Below the pieces are notes generated by a model. The model saw nothing but the letters and a program-made list of their open reading frames with translations, did not search any database and was not told the origin of the DNA. The position numbers were made by a program, and so were the translations under genes. Below are positions 30,955 to 52,307 of a stretch of 64,000 nucleotides of DNA, in pieces. Source of the stretch: a virus (taxonomy: Duplodnaviria > Heunggongvirae > Uroviricota > Caudoviricetes); the IMG/VR virus record IMGVR_UViG_3300029288_000059, positions 97,237 to 161,236 of that record. One strand, 5' to 3'. The number at the start of each line of letters is the position of its first letter. The stretch's first letter is position 1.

Positions 30955-31376
30955 ATATCTTAACTCAAATTGAAGAGTATACTCCGGGTAAGTATCTTAA
31001 ATTGAATAACATACCGACGGATAAAAAGTTGTTCTTATCTCAATATAGAGATGAAGTACATCAAACGTTAACTTTAATGAAGTTATATAACCAGTATCTA
31101 ATAGATAACAACTTAGTATCCGCCGAAACAGATAATAGACGATTGAATGCACTTATTGGCGAATTGGATACGGTTTCTAATGTGGTTAATGTTGGTATTC
31201 AAAAATTAGAAGAAGCTAGTTATTCTAAAACCACATTGGAAATTATAAACGTTCTACAACTAAGTATGAATTATTATAAAAGTCTTAATATAAAATTATC
31301 ATCTATATCTCCAAAATTATTGAATATGAATGAACGTTTGATAAACAAGATTAAGTCATTATACTTTAAATATTAA
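30951..31376 (+). CDS. Hypothetical protein
   Basis: ATGA-coupled to the sigma gene. Confidence 0.6.
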   Translation: MNILTQIEEYTPGKYLKLNNIPTDKKLFLSQYRDEVHQTLTLMKLYNQYLIDNNLVSAETDNRRLNALIGELDTVSNVVNVGIQKLEEASYSKTTLEIINVLQLSMNYYKSLNIKLSSISPKLLNMNERLINKIKSLYFKY

Positions 31377-31438
31377 TTGTTGACAGATTCATTGAGTTAT
31401 GTTATATTAAAATTATAAGTAATTTAAGGAGATAACAA

Positions 31439-31636
31439 ATGTCAAAGAAACAACAAATTATACAACTTATTAAGGAATTTAAATCAATCCCTAAAATGGT
31501 TCGGGACGAAACTGACCCGTTTGATTTTATTATGTCTGATAAAGATATAGAAGATTGGAATAAACGTACTATTGATGATGAAGCATTAATGAGGGATACT
31601 GCTAAAGAATACAACATCGATTATGATTCCGTTTAA
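31439..31636 (+). CDS. Hypothetical early protein
   Basis: Early promoter at ~31380; AAGGAG RBS. Confidence 0.6.
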   Translation: MSKKQQIIQLIKEFKSIPKMVRDETDPFDFIMSDKDIEDWNKRTIDDEALMRDTAKEYNIDYDSV

Positions 31637-31661
31637 TAATACTAATTAAAGGATATATACA

Positions 31662-31853
31662 ATGACAAGAGAAGAAAAAGAATTCATCCAATCCACATTA
31701 AGTAGTTTTAAGCAATTATTAATAAAAGTTCATAATTTACCATGTGATGTAAAGGATGGTATGGGTCCTAATGATGACCAACTAACTACTTTATATCATA
31801 ATAGCATTAAAGCTATTAAACTTATTGATGATTCTATGATTTATGATGAATAG
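31662..31853 (+). CDS. Hypothetical protein
   Basis: AAGGA RBS. Confidence 0.55.
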   Translation: MTREEKEFIQSTLSSFKQLLIKVHNLPCDVKDGMGPNDDQLTTLYHNSIKAIKLIDDSMIYDE

Positions 31854-31945
31854 GTTAAATATTTTAAAATAGGTATTGACTCATTTGTTTAATATGTTAT
31901 ACTTAAATTATAAACACATAAAGAAATATATAGAAGGAGTCCCCC

Positions 31946-32224
31946 ATGTCAAATGTATTAATGGTGGTATGTTTTGAGTTACTGTTACTTATTACTCTAT
32001 ATTCGTATCATTCGTACCTCAATATTGCATTGGTGTTATTTAGTAATATTGCGTTGCTAATGGTACTATTATGTGATGTCCAGTTAGTTATTTTGTTAGG
32101 TACTTATTATGGTTTGTTGACTTCGGTCCCATTAACTATCTATTTTCTATTAATGTTTTTAGTACAACAAAAAATAATACATTATGATTATGAATCTGAC
32201 AATCGATGGAATAAGGGGAAGTAA
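31946..32224 (+). CDS. Small membrane protein
   Basis: Hydrophobic; early promoter 31876-31915; AAGGAG RBS. Confidence 0.6.
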   Translation: MSNVLMVVCFELLLLITLYSYHSYLNIALVLFSNIALLMVLLCDVQLVILLGTYYGLLTSVPLTIYFLLMFLVQQKIIHYDYESDNRWNKGK

Positions 32225-32349
32225 TACCATGAAACGTCCATATTATGTATTGACGAATTATAATAGTGCAACTAATAGTTATGACGATGCGGTATACAAA
32301 GTACGAGTTGTACATTATGATAATGATAAAATGTTACATATCGTATGTG

Positions 32350-32470
32350 CCGATGGCTTGTTTAGTGATAATACCTATCTAGATAGATTAAGTGATGGGA
32401 GTTTACAGTCCCCATCTCCAAAAAACTTAAAACAACACAATGTTAATAATGTATTGGTTTAGGTGACTGT
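32350..32470 (+). ncRNA. Orphan copy of the TnpB 3' end / omegaRNA-like scaffold
   Basis: About 6 substitutions and 1 indel versus the reverse complement of 50774-50895. Confidence 0.7.
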
Positions 32471-32779
32471 CCATATCAACATAAACGACTATGTAATGGT
32501 GAGGTCGGACTAATAATGAGTATAGATGTTACTTTTATTATTTCAAAGGATTGTCAACAACGTTGTTGGATTAATGAATGTACTTATTGTGGTAAACGAG
32601 GATTTGGTACTATGGCTGGATTCTTCTTACCAGTATGTGATGAGGGATTATCATATATTCAAAAGTATATTGATTATAAACTTACTAAGTGTGAGTTGTT
32701 AGCGTTCTTTGATACTCACAATATTGGTTATCGTGATATAGAATGTAATATTATTAAGTATGGAGTTCCTAATGTTTAA
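32468..32779 (+). pseudogene. 5'-truncated CxxC-containing paralog of the next gene
   Basis: Frame reads CPYQHKRLCNGEVGLIMSIDVT from the scaffold end and aligns with CQYKHRHDKKFGPGMVRDIDVT of the neighbour; may still be translated from ATG 32516. Confidence 0.55.
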
Positions 32780-33095
32780 TATATTTAAACGTTTAATGTG
32801 CCAATATAAACATCGTCATGATAAGAAGTTTGGTCCTGGAATGGTACGGGACATAGATGTCACATTAATTGATAAGTTCGGACATAAACAATATGGCCAT
32901 ATTTACGAATGTACTTTCTGTGGTAAACGTGAATTTGATATTATGGAATCGTTTGCTCCGTCTTTTGATGATCTTGGGTTATTCTCAATAAATGATTATA
33001 TCGAACATAAAACTACAAAGAAAGAATTATTAGAGAGGCTTGAGTTTAATCATGTTGAATATGATGACTTAACAGATTGGGATACTCATTTTTAA
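32772..33095 (+). CDS. Hypothetical CxxC protein (start MFNIFK)
   Basis: YECTFCGKR; GGAG RBS. Confidence 0.6.
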   Translation: MFNIFKRLMCQYKHRHDKKFGPGMVRDIDVTLIDKFGHKQYGHIYECTFCGKREFDIMESFAPSFDDLGLFSINDYIEHKTTKKELLERLEFNHVEYDDLTDWDTHF

Positions 33096-33110
33096 CATTG
33101 GAGAAGTAAA

Positions 33111-33491
33111 ATGGCATTATATAAGGTTCGCGGCGGAGCATCACAACAATATTGGACTGTTAATGGGGAAGAGTATGGCGGTAATTGCGTTAAGGATGAT
33201 AGGGGAGTTTACTGGTATGATTATCATCGCGATACTTCATACGACAGTCCTAATGTTAATAATGAACATGACATTACTCCTATATCAACGAAACAACAAT
33301 GGACTAACCATATCATCAATCTAGTATTAATTGTTTGGTTGGCTACTTTAACAACTCAAATTGTGATATGTTTTAATGATTGGAATATTAAAGCATTTAT
33401 GTTATTTACCCTGTCAAAAGTCGTTGACATTGGAATGGGCTATTTTCTAATAACAAAGATTAATAGGTTCATTAATAAGGGTTACGATTAG
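33111..33491 (+). CDS. Hypothetical membrane protein
   Basis: Two C-terminal hydrophobic segments; GGAG RBS. Confidence 0.55.
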   Translation: MALYKVRGGASQQYWTVNGEEYGGNCVKDDRGVYWYDYHRDTSYDSPNVNNEHDITPISTKQQWTNHIINLVLIVWLATLTTQIVICFNDWNIKAFMLFTLSKVVDIGMGYFLITKINRFINKGYD

Positions 33492-33505
33492 TGGGGAATT
33501 TATAA

Positions 33506-33811
33506 ATGAGAAGACCTCTTAACCCATATCAAACCAGGTACTACTTTACTGAATACCAAAGTAGTGATGTGAATATCATCACGCGCAATCATGTAACCTT
33601 GGGTGGTATATTACCACGTTTCAAGTATGTCAGTGGCGATTTTGATTGTAGTTATTGCCAATTAACAAGTTTAGAAGGTTGTCCTATATATGTGGGTGGA
33701 TGGTTTCGTTGTAGTGGTAACAAATTAACAAGTTTAAAATATCGTCCAATTTATACAGGTGACCTTTTTATTTGCGACAAAGAAACGTTACTATTGGCGA
33801 CAACTTTATAA
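33506..33811 (+). CDS. Small LRR-repeat protein related to the C-terminus of 10617..11852
   Basis: GDFDCSYCQLTSLEGCP, GGWFRCSGNKLTSLK. Confidence 0.65.
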   Translation: MRRPLNPYQTRYYFTEYQSSDVNIITRNHVTLGGILPRFKYVSGDFDCSYCQLTSLEGCPIYVGGWFRCSGNKLTSLKYRPIYTGDLFICDKETLLLATTL

Positions 33812-33858
33812 CTTAATAGAGTCATTGTATCTTATAGTGACAAAGACTAAAACATATT

Positions 33859-33888
33859 AAAAAAGGGTAGTTTAAAACTACCCTTTTT
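33859..33888. terminator. Bidirectional intrinsic terminator
   Basis: AAAAAGGGTAGTTT/AAACTACCCTTTTT between convergent genes. Confidence 0.75.
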
Positions 33889-33891
33889 ATT

Positions 33892-34989
33892 TTAGTCCCC
33901 TTTAATAATAGTTAGTAATTGTTTATCGTAAGCTCTACCCCAATTACTAATGTATGCTTTGAAACGTTTAAATAAGTTTTTGATGTTTTGTAATATTTCA
34001 GGTATTAGTGTTTCATTAATGGATTCACCCATATCTTCTTTATTCTTACCTGGGATTTTACCACCCTTAACTTTATCTTTATATTTTGCAAATTCTAAAT
34101 CATAATTAGCACGAGTATCAACATGGAATCCAGCTTTTTTAACTTCTGAATACATCTTAATAATTTCTTCTAATTTTTGTTTGAGTTGTGGGGTTAGTTC
34201 TTCATTAATGCTATTAACAATACCTTCATTATTATAGGTATATGTGGTATGTTCATCTTTAATAGCGTCTAGTTTTAATTTAAGTTCTGGAGGTAGTATA
34301 GTTTCGAGTTTGGCTAAAACAGAAGCGGCATCAATATACTTAGATGCGTTTTTTGATTCGAAGTCTTGTATCTTATCGGATAAAGTTTTTGGTAAAATCG
34401 TCTTTAAGTCTTTCAAAACTTTATCCCAACTGATTTTAGGTTTAGAATCTTTATTACTACGTAAGATATAAGTACAAGTTCTAACTATACGAGTATATAT
34501 TGAATCTTCCGCGTCAAATAAATCGGCAATGATGTTACCAAGTTCAACATTCATTGTTTCTTTAATCTTAACTAACCTGTCAATGGTTTCACCTAACTCG
34601 TAATAGTCTTTAGCCATTCTAGTAAATGACGCACTTCTTGACCCTTCTAATACAGCAATAACTTTAGTAATTTTACCACTAGCATCATTAATTAGATTAT
34701 AGTTTTCATCTGTTTCAAGATAAGTAGTTAATGGGTCGTTTTCTTTTCTATCTTCGGTTAAGTTTGAAGCAAAATCACGTTTAATGAGTTCTACTATATC
34801 CTTAGGGACAATAATATCACGACGTAAATTATCCAATACTACTTTATATGACTTATCATCAACTTCTGCTTTATTCTCATACCCTTGTGATTTTAACCAT
34901 GCAGCAACTTGAAAAAAGTCTTTAGGACAATTTAGAACTACATCGTCCCCTATTTGTTTACCTATGTGTGGCATCTCATTAAACTCCAA
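33892..34989 (-). CDS. Hypothetical helical protein, possibly head-associated
   Basis: Long ORF with internal repeats (L..ILP..L..K) and SINE/LTE motifs. Confidence 0.65.
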   Translation of the reverse strand: MEFNEMPHIGKQIGDDVVLNCPKDFFQVAAWLKSQGYENKAEVDDKSYKVVLDNLRRDIIVPKDIVELIKRDFASNLTEDRKENDPLTTYLETDENYNLINDASGKITKVIAVLEGSRSASFTRMAKDYYELGETIDRLVKIKETMNVELGNIIADLFDAEDSIYTRIVRTCTYILRSNKDSKPKISWDKVLKDLKTILPKTLSDKIQDFESKNASKYIDAASVLAKLETILPPELKLKLDAIKDEHTTYTYNNEGIVNSINEELTPQLKQKLEEIIKMYSEVKKAGFHVDTRANYDLEFAKYKDKVKGGKIPGKNKEDMGESINETLIPEILQNIKNLFKRFKAYISNWGRAYDKQLLTIIKGD

Positions 34990-39822: not shown

Positions 39823-39865
39823 AATAATTATTGACAAACTTTCTAGTTATGTTATAAATAACGTT

Positions 39866-40224
39866 AATAGGATGAAGTGTTTGAAATAATCATTCAAGAC
39901 TCGGGATGCAACGCCCGACACCTCCACCATCTCCCATAAGGGAACACTGTTAGATGAGCTTATTCATTGTTTTTTTGGATAACTTCACCAGTTTTCATTG
40001 TTTGTTTAATAGTGTTCCCTTATGGGGGTGAATTAGGTTCGATTGGGTGAAAAAGAGACATGGACTATTCCCGTGCAAACTGGGTTAACGTAAGAAAGCA
40101 TGTAAATGCAAATGACAATATGGCTACAAGAATGTTAGTAGCTGCCTAGTCCTAACGGATTATAGGTGAATACATTCTAAAGGGTTTTATGGGTTGCACC
40201 TAGTAACAGAAGCAACCCTTTTTT
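39866..40224 (+). ncRNA. ssrA: Circularly permuted two-piece tmRNA
   Basis: Acceptor piece ends CACCTCCACCA (39929); coding piece starts GGGGGTG (40024), giving a G3.U70 acceptor stem; tag ANDNMATRMLVAA* at 40108-40149; 3' hairpin with AACAGA loop and U-tract; TTGACA promoter at 39831. Confidence 0.92.
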
Positions 40225-50773: not shown

Positions 50774-50895
50774 ACAGTCACTTAAACCAATACATTATTA
50801 ACATTGTATTGTTTTAAGTTTATTTGGAGATGGGGACTGTAAACTCCCATCACTTAATCTATCTAGATAGGTACTATCACTGAATATGCCATCGG
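50774..50895 (-). ncRNA. Putative omegaRNA scaffold (3' part) / element right end overlapping the tnpB 3' end
   Basis: Hairpins CTATCTAGATAG, GATGGG..CCCATC and CTTAAAACAATACA/TGTATTGGTTTAAG; boundary defined by the second copy. Confidence 0.65.
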
Positions 50896-52153
50896 TAGTC
50901 CAGTAAAACCCTTTTCTATTCAAATTAAGTTTGCGGATATTCCACGGGATTTCAGGCAAATCCATACTTAGATTGATAGATGCATTTAAGTCTGCATCTA
51001 TACCTAAACCACAATTATGGCACGTATAGGTTTTACCTTTCCGATTCGACTTCCGCACTTGTCCACAACAACTACATCTTTGACTTCGGTAAGTAGATGC
51101 CTGTTTCTCCACTCGGACCCCGAGTGATTCACAAACAGACAACAACTTGTCTCTGATTATAGTATTCTGCCAATGTTTTAACATTGAACTCGAATTTGTT
51201 TTATAATTAATGTTCCATATATCTTCTAAATTGACTTGTTTTATGTTATTAAAATTGAGTTGATTTATCGACCAATTAACAAAATTAACTTGGTGCTGTT
51301 TAGCACGTTTAAATGCGTTACTACCTCTTTTCTTCCGACATACCTTGTCTAATATGGATTTTTGAGTATGTCCATGTATATCCGTTTTAGTGGTGACTTG
51401 TGTATCTGATAGTGTCAGTACGTCCAATACTCCTTGGTCGGCACCAATGATACTACCAGTAGTACGTAAGGAAGGAGATGGGATGTCCCATCTAATATCT
51501 ACTTTCTTTGGTGTTATTAGGAAAGAGGACATCATCTTACCAATAATTTTGAATTTATTAGAGTGACGTGTCATATTAATAGGAATACATATATTCATTT
51601 TATCTTTAGTGATAGAAGTAATGTGTAAAAAGCCATCAAATTCATTGAATTCATTGTTATTTTTATTAGTATTATAGAATTTACAGCATATCGAGTTCAG
51701 TTCCATGTTGATATTAGTACAAGTGGGCTTTTGTGGTATATTCTGCTTTATTTTCTTAATCAGTTGTGATAATTGCTTTTTTGTATATCCATCTTGCTTT
51801 AATTTATTATATTGATATATACGTTTTCTTTGTTTATCGGTACTTGCTTTAAGTATACCATTCACTTGTCCGATAATGCATTTAAGGCATCTACTTGTTA
51901 AAAATGTATTAATATCTGCCAATTCTAGTATATTGGTAGGGAGGTATGTAGGTAAATCAAATAGATTACGTGATACATCAAAAGTCGTAGTATGTAATAT
52001 ATTATTTGATTTATATGTAGTAATAACCGGGTTATCCCAACAATAGTCTATTAGTAGTGAACATACTCTTATATACTCATTATGTAGTATAGCTAAGTTA
52101 GATAACTTACCTGTATTGCTATTTTGTATAGTATGAGTACTCGTACGTATCAT
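50798..52153 (-). CDS. tnpB: TnpB (IS200/IS605/IS607-type RNA-guided nuclease), no TnpA seen
   Basis: RuvC-I GADQG, RuvC-II LEDI, SQRCSCCG..CHNCG zinc finger, RuvC-III DADLNAS. Confidence 0.9.
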   Translation of the reverse strand: MIRTSTHTIQNSNTGKLSNLAILHNEYIRVCSLLIDYCWDNPVITTYKSNNILHTTTFDVSRNLFDLPTYLPTNILELADINTFLTSRCLKCIIGQVNGILKASTDKQRKRIYQYNKLKQDGYTKKQLSQLIKKIKQNIPQKPTCTNINMELNSICCKFYNTNKNNNEFNEFDGFLHITSITKDKMNICIPINMTRHSNKFKIIGKMMSSFLITPKKVDIRWDIPSPSLRTTGSIIGADQGVLDVLTLSDTQVTTKTDIHGHTQKSILDKVCRKKRGSNAFKRAKQHQVNFVNWSINQLNFNNIKQVNLEDIWNINYKTNSSSMLKHWQNTIIRDKLLSVCESLGVRVEKQASTYRSQRCSCCGQVRKSNRKGKTYTCHNCGLGIDADLNASINLSMDLPEIPWNIRKLNLNRKGFYWTTDGIFSDSTYLDRLSDGSLQSPSPNKLKTIQC

Positions 52154-52307
52154 ATCATATAACTTCCTTATTATTTAAAGTTAGTATGTACTTCATTAGT
52201 AAGTAAGTCAATATATTATTTATATACAAATAATGTTGTATTATGTTATAAAAGGTAATAGATTATATAATGTTAATTAACACATCATAAGGAGTAGTCA
52301 ATACTAA

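What the first reader, a model, noticed from the sequence alone, without database searches (positions are those of the whole stretch)
32350..32492. Orphan omegaRNA-like locus 18 kb from TnpB, carrying a different guide
Seen: 32350-32470 matches the reverse complement of 50774-50895 (about 6 substitutions, 1 indel). It covers the last tnpB codons and the downstream hairpins. Identity ends sharply at GTGACTGT, then the sequences diverge (CCATATCAACATAAACG vs TATACTTATATTATAAAC). Known: TnpB omegaRNAs overlap the tnpB 3' end, end at the element right end, and take the flanking DNA as guide. Inference: a stand-alone second guide RNA usable in trans by the single TnpB (a dispersed, pre-CRISPR-like guide repertoire), transcribed from the early promoter at 31876; or a remnant of a deleted element.
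Basis: partly seen in the sequence, partly recalled or inferred. Interest (0 to 1): 0.8.

Follow-up and report, generated by a model that had tools for sequence, protein, structure and literature searches.

The report
Solo TnpB guide-RNA scaffold in jumbo phage
A 122-base leftover of a jumping gene sits inside a small gene of a 290-kb phage; it keeps only the folded guide-RNA scaffold and its own guide, which the phage's four near-identical TnpB nucleases could still use, a kind of stand-alone guide already known from bacteria.

Summary
The repeat is real. Window 32349-32470 (+) is 94% identical (E about 1e-47) to the right end of the tnpB element at 50774-50895 (-), and identity stops exactly at ...GTGACTGT.

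The "single TnpB" premise is wrong. The 290-kb virus record holds four close tnpB elements (84-87% aa identity), one distant element, and this gene-less copy. All six end in the same motif, and each has its own flank.

Relatives carry a serine-recombinase tnpA directly upstream of tnpB, so the family is IS607. This record has no transposase.

A covariance model over 49 relatives shows a core of about 85 nt: a nexus hairpin, a stem-loop, and a pseudoknot (loop ACAGU with terminal ACUGU). All of it lies inside the orphan.

The orphan lacks the 5' strand of one further upstream helix. It also has one private T>C change that puts a C.A mismatch in an otherwise invariant stem.

Its left junction is ATGT, the same RTGT target motif as at all six left ends. 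A paralogous gene shows the insert splits one former ORF cleanly.

By origin it is a 5'-truncated solo right end. It is plausibly still a trans-usable guide (about 50%), but this is unproven. Stand-alone omegaRNAs are already described, and this scan found similar ones in other large phages.

The parts
32349..32470 (+). Solo right end of an IS607-type tnpB element (122 nt). It has no left end and no tnpB.
   Evidence: 94% identity to the right ends of four tnpB-bearing copies. Family covariance model R2 gives 66.6 bits, against 69.8-77.3 for copies A-D and 59.4 for E.
32394..32416 (+). Nexus hairpin (GAUGGG...CCCAUC). Its loop carries pseudoknot strand PK-1, ACAGU, at 32405-32409.
   Evidence: All six pairs covary and are 99% paired across 49 relatives.
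32425..32464 (+). Long stem-loop of the scaffold. The orphan's only private substitution (T>C at 32436) makes a C.A mismatch in the upper stem.
   Evidence: 14 pairs, all covarying, 93% paired. The private change is shown. MFE of the 85-nt core is -15.9 kcal/mol, against -20.2 to -24.3 for tnpB-linked copies.
32466..32470 (+). Pseudoknot strand PK-2 (ACUGU), the last bases of the scaffold and of the element. The GT may be the recombination core.
   Evidence: PK pairs are 95% paired. The second pair occurs as UA 19, CG 16, GC 8. The pseudoknot was not part of the model used to make the alignment.
32471..32490 (+). Guide-position flank CCATATCAACATAAACGACT. It is unique in the genome.
   Evidence: It directly follows the element boundary. 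The window has no second match within 3 mismatches. The genome has no TAM-flanked near-match.
32345..32348 (+). ATGT at the left junction. This is the target / TAM-like motif RTGT.
   Evidence: All six left-end junctions read RTGT before TAATTAAC-like left-end sequence: A, B, D ATGT; C, E, L088 GTGT.
32229..32348 (+). 5' part of the interrupted small gene. It now reads on into tnpB-derived codons as a 77/92-aa ORF ending at 32462.
   Evidence: ORF list. Removing 32349-32470 joins it in frame to the next part.
32471..32779 (+). 3' part of the interrupted gene. It consists of 15 open codons followed by the 87-aa ORF starting at 32516.
   Evidence: BLASTP to paralog p111 (32760-33095) starts at the TGT codon formed by the last 3 bases of the element: 38% identity over 91 aa, E 1e-18.
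31876..31903 (+). Promoter-like site upstream in the same orientation. It belongs to the phage's multicopy promoter motif.
   Evidence: TTGACT-16-TATACT with TG. The motif recurs many times in the genome.
50774..52285 (-). Full-length tnpB-only element C, with tnpB CDS at 50798-52153. It is the only tnpB inside the window and one of four that could supply TnpB in trans.
   Evidence: 451-aa ORF with the Cas12f1-like TNB domain. Element limits come from comparing four copies and L088. The candidate RuvC acidic residues (D239, E310, D386/D388; assigned from motif context, not tested) are invariant in all five copies.

Best explanation
What it is (near certain): a 122-bp, 5'-truncated solo right end of a transposase-less IS607-type tnpB element.

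How it arose:
- Inferred: an element inserted at an RTGT site in the 5' part of a small phage gene, a paralog of the gene at 32760-33095.
- Inferred: it later lost its left end and about 1.39 kb including tnpB.
- Shown: the target junction, the right-end junction and the whole conserved omegaRNA core remain in place.

How it most likely works (inferred, about even odds):
- It is transcribed with its operon from the promoter-like site at 31876.
- One of the four near-identical TnpB proteins encoded elsewhere in the genome binds the nexus hairpin, pseudoknot and stem-loop core.
- That protein trims the 5' side and uses the following 16-20 nt (CCATATCAAC...) as guide.
- The only DNA this guide matches next to an RTGT motif is the uninterrupted form of this same gene. 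The phage itself would therefore not be cut.
- A co-infecting relative without the insert would be cut, and repair would copy the 122-bp insert in.

On this reading it is a non-autonomous, guide-only homing unit that depends on the TnpB of other elements. There is no sign that it was selected for this role.
For: Identity:
- Six right ends share ...GGTTTARGTRACTGT, and each has a different flank.
- Relatives have a Resolvase-domain ORF directly upstream of tnpB.
- Element E keeps a 53-aa remnant of that TnpA.

Scaffold:
- Covariance models find the core at the 3' end of nearly every homolog.
- The hairpin, stem-loop and pseudoknot covary: 95.4% of cells are paired, against 38-44% when partners are slid.
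- The orphan scores within the range of tnpB-linked copies.

Junctions:
- The left flank ends in ATGT, as RTGT does at six of six left ends.
- Paralogous uninterrupted targets of A and C hold a single TGT.
- The paralog alignment begins at the element's last codon, and excision restores one ORF.

Trans use:
- Four intact 451-452-aa TnpBs have invariant candidate catalytic residues.
- Their scaffold cores differ from the orphan's at 6-11 of 122 positions.
- The orphan has the same orientation as its operon, a promoter-like site upstream and no predicted terminator in between.
- The genome has no self-target.
- The orphan has only one private substitution, while 4-fold sites of the tnpB copies differ by 23-35%.

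Published knowledge:
- Stand-alone omegaRNAs work in trans with compatible effectors (PMC10691335, citing Altae-Tran 2021).
- The 5' region upstream of the pseudoknot-bearing stem is not needed in ISDra2 (PMC10097598).
- An IS607 TnpB cuts off the 5' part of its precursor (PMC10690162).
Against: - The single private change falls in a stem that is invariant in the five tnpB-linked copies and weakens the core fold by 4-8 kcal/mol.
- The orphan lacks the 5' strand of helix P0, whose complementarity is supported across relatives (16 of 35 clear, Wilcoxon p = 4e-5).
- It is a single copy without a left end. The tnpB-less mini elements of relative G001, by contrast, keep both ends and have multiplied.
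- Low divergence is equally explained by a recent deletion or by gene conversion.
- No related phage with this gene was found, so neither conservation of the orphan nor an uninterrupted target could be shown.
- No expression data could be obtained.
Confidence: 0.5

Rival explanations
1. Inert relic. The solo right end is a recent deletion product that is no longer loaded by TnpB, or not loaded productively. It will decay, and its intact look only reflects its youth.
For: - The one private substitution breaks an invariant stem pair.
- The 5' strand of helix P0 is gone.
- There is no left end and no amplification.
- Deletion derivatives are common in this element family: tnpA is lost in A-D, E's tnpA is internally deleted, tnpB is internally deleted in G004, and G001 has a 5'-truncated copy.
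- With one private change in 122 nt, the time since release from constraint could be short compared with the 23-35% neutral divergence of the copies.
Against: - The complete covarying core, both pseudoknot strands and the exact right-end junction are kept.
- It is the only fragment of the element family in the genome, and it is exactly the RNA-coding part.
- Published work shows that 5'-trimmed scaffolds are active (PMC10097598) and that stand-alone omegaRNAs are active in trans (PMC10691335).
Confidence: 0.4
2. The orphan did not arise by deletion in place. It was inserted as a mini element: a serine recombinase paired the true right end with an internal pseudo-site, excised a circle of about 122 bp, and integrated it at a GT core in this gene.
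For: - Both junctions are exactly those of a recombinase insertion: RT[GT] on the left and ACT[GT] on the right, with the target holding one copy of the core.
- IS607 TnpA works through a circular dsDNA intermediate and a core dinucleotide (PMC10690162).
- An 8-nt motif of the left end (TAATCTAT) recurs inverted inside the orphan (read).
Against: - The donor copies read CT, not GT, before GCCGATGG, so the cores would mismatch.
- The internal site does not resemble a left end.
- A 122-bp double-stranded circle is strongly strained.
- No recombinase gene is present in this record.
- I also tried a model of left end with an internal pseudo-right-end. It predicts a junction 2 nt shorter than the one observed.
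Confidence: 0.07
3. The repeat is an assembly artefact or a chance similarity.
For: The record is a metagenome-derived contig with several near-identical repeats, which can mislead assemblers.
Against: - E is about 1e-47.
- The orphan is a distinct sequence, with one private change and a mosaic of variants seen in different copies.
- The left flank is unique DNA that shares no long word with tnpB.
- The flanks on both sides fit one paralog-supported ORF.
Confidence: 0.02

Closest known systems
Stand-alone omegaRNAs of OMEGA systems (Altae-Tran et al. 2021, as summarised in PMC10691335)
   Same: It is a gene-less omegaRNA copy with its own guide, in the same genome as effector-bearing copies. 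Such RNAs were shown to work in trans with compatible effectors.
   Different: Those were described as 'evidently mobilized' units in bacterial genomes. This one has no left end, is single-copy, sits in a jumbo phage, and has not been tested for activity.
IS607-family TnpB with right-end omegaRNA, e.g. CboIStron (PMC10690162)
   Same: - The scaffold lies at the right end, and the loop of its first hairpin ('nexus') pairs with the last bases of the scaffold.
- The target motif equals the TAM.
- The element's last bases resemble the TAM but differ upstream: here CTGT against RTGT, in Cbo TCGG against TGGG.
- Relatives have a serine-recombinase tnpA upstream of tnpB.
   Different: - No group I intron was found: no Rfam intron family matched in the window, which includes element C.
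- No tnpA is present in this genome.
- There are two stem-loops rather than three.
- The TAM is inferred from seven junctions, not measured.
- The orphan lacks tnpB and the left end altogether.
PATE-like protein-less IS200/IS605 elements carrying omegaRNAs (Meers et al. 2023, PMC10055086)
   Same: They are protein-less derivatives whose omegaRNA must be used by TnpB encoded elsewhere. A parallel exists in relative G001: five loci of tnpB-less mini elements of about 330 nt with a shared 5' end (putative left end) and an omegaRNA.
   Different: PATEs keep both ends and can be moved by TnpA. The orphan keeps only the right end, so only homing could spread it.
ISDra2 TnpB omegaRNA (PMC10097598)
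   Same: A pseudoknot forms between the loop of the first stem and the bases just before the guide. The functional scaffold is about 116 nt, and its 5' extension is dispensable.
   Different: It belongs to the IS200/IS605 family with TTGAT as TAM, and it has four stems and a triple helix. The core here is shorter (about 85 nt), and its relation to those stems is not established.

Membership tests
Right end / omegaRNA of an IS607-type tnpB element | Sequence homology to the right ends of tnpB-bearing copies, ending at the same boundary | tested here: met
   93-95% identity to four copies (94.3% to copy C). All copies end ...GTGACTGT and then diverge.
Right end / omegaRNA of an IS607-type tnpB element | Conserved scaffold structure: nexus hairpin, stem-loop, and a pseudoknot with the 3' terminal bases | tested here: met
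   R2 score 66.6 bits. Covariation was shown in 49 relatives, including the pseudoknot, which was not in the model. There is one C.A mismatch in the stem-loop.
Right end / omegaRNA of an IS607-type tnpB element | tnpB gene overlapping the 5' part of the scaffold | tested here: not met
   Only 28 tnpB-derived codons remain. The nearest tnpB gene is 18 kb away.
Right end / omegaRNA of an IS607-type tnpB element | Serine-recombinase TnpA associated with the tnpB family | tested here: met
   Resolvase ORFs of 200-213 aa lie directly upstream of family tnpB in G001, G004 and G005. 35 of the fetched loci have a 120-aa-or-longer ORF ending at the tnpB start, and the N-termini of at least 20 of them match E's remnant. 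The own record has no such gene, only E's 53-aa remnant.
Right end / omegaRNA of an IS607-type tnpB element | Target/TAM motif immediately 5' of the insertion | tested here: met
   The orphan's left flank ends in ATGT. Six left-end junctions read RTGT. The TAM itself was not measured.
Mobilisable non-autonomous element (PATE / mini-IS) | Both a left end and a right end | tested here: not met
   No left-end-like sequence lies upstream of the orphan.
Functional stand-alone omegaRNA | Expressed, bound by a compatible TnpB, and able to direct cleavage | not testable with these tools
   Only context is available: sense orientation, an upstream promoter-like site, and no predicted terminator.
Functional stand-alone omegaRNA | A compatible effector encoded in the same genome | tested here: met
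   Four intact tnpB genes have right-end segments that differ from the orphan's at 6-11 of 122 positions.

The most novel reading that the evidence does not exclude
The 122-bp unit is a guide-only selfish element. With no transposase, no nuclease and no left end, it persists and spreads between co-infecting jumbo phages purely because the TnpB proteins of other elements load its RNA and cut uninterrupted alleles. It would then be a parasite of the TnpB elements and a natural step toward a nuclease served by dispersed guides.
Probability: 0.25. Interest if true: 0.65.

Novelty: new member of a known kind. Interest (0 to 1): 0.38.

Why it matters
If the orphan RNA is loaded, this phage would have six guides for one TnpB type, one of them gene-less. 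It would then also give a clean natural test of how little an RNA-guided homing unit needs: 122 bp, no left end and no protein. The case also documents an IS607-type TnpB family in jumbo phages with a covariation-supported scaffold and an inferred RTGT target motif. The idea itself, stand-alone omegaRNAs used in trans, is already published. This scan has also noted similar solo scaffolds in several other large phages, so this is one more example and not a new kind.

Tried and rejected
- Searches for related phages found nothing. These were a megablast of 31000-34000 against phage records, the search for related loci with the neighbouring sigma factor, with TnpB alone and with p111, and a protein search with the extended p87 frame, which found only itself. 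So no uninterrupted site and no conserved orphan could be shown.
- Rfam has no family for this RNA.
- The MFE fold of the full copy suggested a long stem from -165 to -79. Only its base (P0) is supported in relatives. The rest overlaps a phage-specific 24-nt coding insert.
- I modelled the left junction as recombinase-mediated deletion between the left end and an internal pseudo-right-end (GGACTG resembles GTGACTG). The predicted junction is 2 nt shorter than observed, so I rejected it.
- A blastn search for orphans in G001 missed them. The covariance model found them.
- A weak model hit in L014 (E 0.65) and a minus-strand hit in L088 were treated as chance.
- No Y1 transposase and no resolvase are present in the record, which is estimated 79% complete.

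Full report
**Observation**

Window 32349-32470 (+) aligns with the reverse complement of 50774-50895, with six substitutions and one single-base indel. blastn gives 94.3% identity over 122 columns, E 9.5e-48. Identity stops exactly after GTGACTGT, and the two flanks are unrelated.

**Genome context**

The window is part of a 289,811-base virus record with 31% GC, estimated 79% complete. The same segment occurs six times.

- Four copies end full-length tnpB-only elements of about 1.51 kb. I call them A, B, C and D. Only C lies in the window, and their TnpBs are 84-87% identical.
- A fifth copy ends a distant tnpB, element E (36-37% aa identity), just left of the window.
- The sixth copy is the orphan.

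So "the single TnpB" holds for the window only. All six copies end ...GGTTTARGTRACTGT and are followed by different sequence. All four close TnpBs are uninterrupted. The candidate RuvC acidic residues (D239, E310, D386/D388, assigned from motif context) are invariant in all five proteins.

**Which transposon family**

The record has no Y1 transposase and no resolvase. A protein search found hundreds of TnpB homologs at about 50% identity. A profile scan of IMG/VR returned 80 loci, many on contigs of 100-390 kb.

In relatives G001, G004 and G005, a Resolvase-domain ORF of 200-213 aa lies directly upstream of the family's tnpB. Of the fetched loci, 35 have an ORF of 120 aa or more ending at the tnpB start. 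The 53-aa ORF in front of E's tnpB matches the N-terminal helix-turn-helix of at least 20 of these (best E 6e-10). In one of them (L055) it also matches the last 13 residues. It is therefore an internally deleted tnpA.

All copies in this phage are non-autonomous.

**Element ends and target motif**

All left ends read RTGT followed by TAATTAAC-like sequence: A, B and D have ATGT, while C, E and the related contig L088 have GTGT. Right ends read ...ACTGT.

Two targets have uninterrupted paralogs in the same genome. Both show that the uninterrupted site holds a single TGT.

- C sits in the phage's multicopy promoter motif, TATAATnTGT|TATACTTAAATTATAA.
- A sits one base after a start codon. ATG T|TG AGA TAT TTA GAA CCT TAT encodes MLRYLEPY, a member of the phage's large RxLEPY gene family.

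This is the anatomy described for the IS607 CboIStron. There the TnpA target equals the TAM (TGGG), a core dinucleotide is shared by target and element, and the scaffold ends in the related TCGG (PMC10690162). By analogy the TAM here is RTGT. That is an inference from seven junctions, not a measurement.

**The RNA**

I built a covariance model from the local copies and searched 58 related loci. It found one hit at the 3' end of tnpB, on the tnpB strand, in 47 of them. Two further hits were treated as chance.

On the resulting 49-sequence alignment:
- The hairpin I call nexus has 6 of 6 pairs covarying and is 99% paired.
- The long stem-loop has 14 covarying pairs and is 93% paired.
- A pseudoknot joins the hairpin loop (ACAGU here) to the last five bases of the element (ACUGU here). 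It is 95% paired, and its second pair occurs as UA 19, CG 16 and GC 8.

The pseudoknot was not part of the model, so it is not an effect of fitting. Sliding the partners drops pairing to 38-44%. This matches the published general architecture, in which the loop of the first hairpin pairs with the 3' end of the scaffold (PMC10690162, PMC10097598).

The whole core occupies the last 85 nt or so and is present in the orphan. With the family model the orphan scores 66.6 bits, against 69.8-77.3 for A-D and 59.4 for E.

**What the orphan lacks**

Among A-D, conservation rises about 225 nt before the right end and dips around -135 to -105, which is where the orphan begins. A 9-nt segment about 20 nt upstream of the GFYW codons is complementary to the 9 nt just 5' of the nexus hairpin. 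Locally this is ACUUAAUUU with AGAUUAAGU.

At the homologous place this complementarity exceeds the background in relatives, with different sequences. It is clear in 16 of 35, Wilcoxon p = 4e-5. The orphan has only the 3' strand of this helix (P0).

Whether P0 matters is unknown. In ISDra2 everything upstream of the pseudoknot-bearing stem (-231 to -117) is dispensable (PMC10097598). CboTnpB cuts its precursor 42 nt downstream of the start of the conserved model (PMC10690162).

The orphan's only private substitution is T>C at 32436, position -35. It converts a U-A pair that is invariant in the five tnpB-linked copies into C.A. The 85-nt core still folds into the same shape, but at -15.9 kcal/mol against -20.2 to -24.3 for the others.

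**How the orphan sits in its gene**

The 45 nt between the element end and the ATG of the 87-aa ORF (32516) are open in that ORF's frame. BLASTP to the neighbouring paralog p111 (32760-33095) starts at the Cys codon TGT formed by the last three bases of the element. It gives 38% identity over 91 residues, E 1e-18. Codon by codon, TGT CCA TAT CAA CAT aligns with TGC CAA TAT AAA CAT.

On the left, the flank ends ...ATG TTA CAT ATC GTA TGT. Removing 32349-32470 joins the two sides in frame.

So the insert splits one former ORF. It is bounded on the left by ATGT (the RTGT motif) and on the right by the normal element end. The flanks are intact, and only the inside of the element is missing: the left end and about 1.39 kb with tnpB.

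The left break coincides, within one base, with the point where the left end would have begun. I could not explain this by a simple recombinase model:
- Left end with an internal pseudo-right-end predicts a junction 2 nt shorter than observed.
- A mini-circle from an internal pseudo-left-end fits the junction but needs mismatched cores and a 122-bp circle.

Deletion in place, starting at the left-end crossover point, is the simplest reading. The mechanism remains open.

**Age**

Over the 122 nt, the orphan differs from D at 6 positions, from B and C at 8, and from A at 11. This is the same range as the tnpB-linked copies show among themselves. The orphan has 1 private change, against A 6, B 3, C 2 and D 0.

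Four-fold degenerate sites of the tnpB genes differ by 23-35% between copies. The orphan has therefore spent little time, if any, free of constraint. A recent deletion, continued constraint and gene conversion all fit this.

**Could it act?**

- The orphan lies in the same orientation as all surrounding genes.
- A promoter-like site, part of the phage's multicopy motif, lies about 450 nt upstream, and no terminator-like site lies between.
- Its 20-nt flank has no second match in the window within three mismatches. The genome has no TAM-flanked near-match. The phage would therefore not cut itself.
- The uninterrupted gene of a relative (ATGT followed by the flank) would be a perfect target.
- Stand-alone omegaRNAs have been reported to work in trans with compatible effectors (PMC10691335, citing Altae-Tran et al. 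2021). PATE-borne omegaRNAs were proposed to do so (PMC10055086).

**How common**

I ran the family RNA model and the TnpB profile over 30 related virus records.

- In 25 of these records, all 31 RNA hits abut a tnpB.
- G001 (368 kb, complete) has five loci, plus a terminal-repeat copy, of mini elements of about 330 nt. These carry a shared 5' end (putative left end) and an omegaRNA but no tnpB. One has an internal deletion, and one is 5'-truncated to about 170 nt.
- G004 has two copies in which tnpB is internally deleted but the RNA is kept.

Gene-less scaffolds are thus uncommon but recurrent in this family. The survey is biased, because I searched with the RNA. In the own genome, though, a search with the whole element and with the protein found no other fragment.

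Notes of this scan report similar solo scaffolds in several other large phages. I did not check those.

**Verdict**

By origin the locus is a 5'-truncated solo right end of an IS607-type tnpB element (confidence about 0.95). It keeps a complete-looking omegaRNA core, its own guide and the TAM-side junction. It probably can still be loaded by the phage's TnpBs and direct cutting of uninterrupted alleles (about 0.5). An inert young relic is nearly as likely (about 0.4). It is a new member of a known kind, and interest is moderate.

Noticed in passing
L006:109-270 (genome 94354-94515, about 2.7 kb left of the window start): Element E carries a 53-aa ORF. It is the N-terminal helix-turn-helix of the family's serine-recombinase TnpA and, by its match to one relative (L055), perhaps also that protein's last 13 residues. 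The catalytic domain is deleted, apparently in frame.
   Followed up: yes
L006:1517-1567 compared with window 50774-50824 (-): The last 50 nt or so of E's scaffold and right end are almost identical to those of A-D, although the TnpB proteins are only 36-37% identical. This suggests exchange or homogenisation of the right-end module between unrelated elements in one genome.
   Followed up: no
L091, L092, L093, L094, L095, L096 (relative G001, 368 kb): A family of tnpB-less mini elements of about 330 nt, with a shared 5' end (putative left end) and an omegaRNA, occupies five loci plus a terminal-repeat copy. L093 has an internal deletion. L094 is a 5'-truncated copy of about 170 nt that shares 37 nt of right flank with L093, so it would carry the same guide.
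   Followed up: partly
G004:C1:25553-26598 and 99719-100354 (L097, L098): There are two copies of an element in which tnpB is reduced to residues 1-172 joined to 384-428, while the omegaRNA is intact. The first copy also has a resolvase gene directly upstream.
   Followed up: partly
genome 67563-69067 (element A, left of the window; L005): Element A is inserted one base after the start codon of an RxLEPY-family gene. Its guide therefore resembles the 5' ends of many paralogs, with several matches at 1-3 mismatches. None that I inspected is preceded by RTGT.
   Followed up: partly
window 39827-40220 (+): A permuted tmRNA gene lies in the phage genome (Rfam RF04321 107.5 bits; alpha_tmRNA 92.5 bits).
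   Followed up: no
window 32516-33095 (+): Two tandem paralogous small genes (87 and 111 aa, 38% identical) share a CxxCGKR motif and have no homolog in the 5.8-billion-protein collection. The paralog p111 has ATGTGC followed by a sequence that matches the orphan's guide at 10 of its first 12 positions.
   Followed up: partly
window 50858-50941 (-) and homologous places in relatives: A long-range helix (P0) pairs codons about 20 nt upstream of the GFYW motif with the 9 nt before the nexus hairpin. It lies wholly within coding sequence and is seen in about half of the family.
   Followed up: partly
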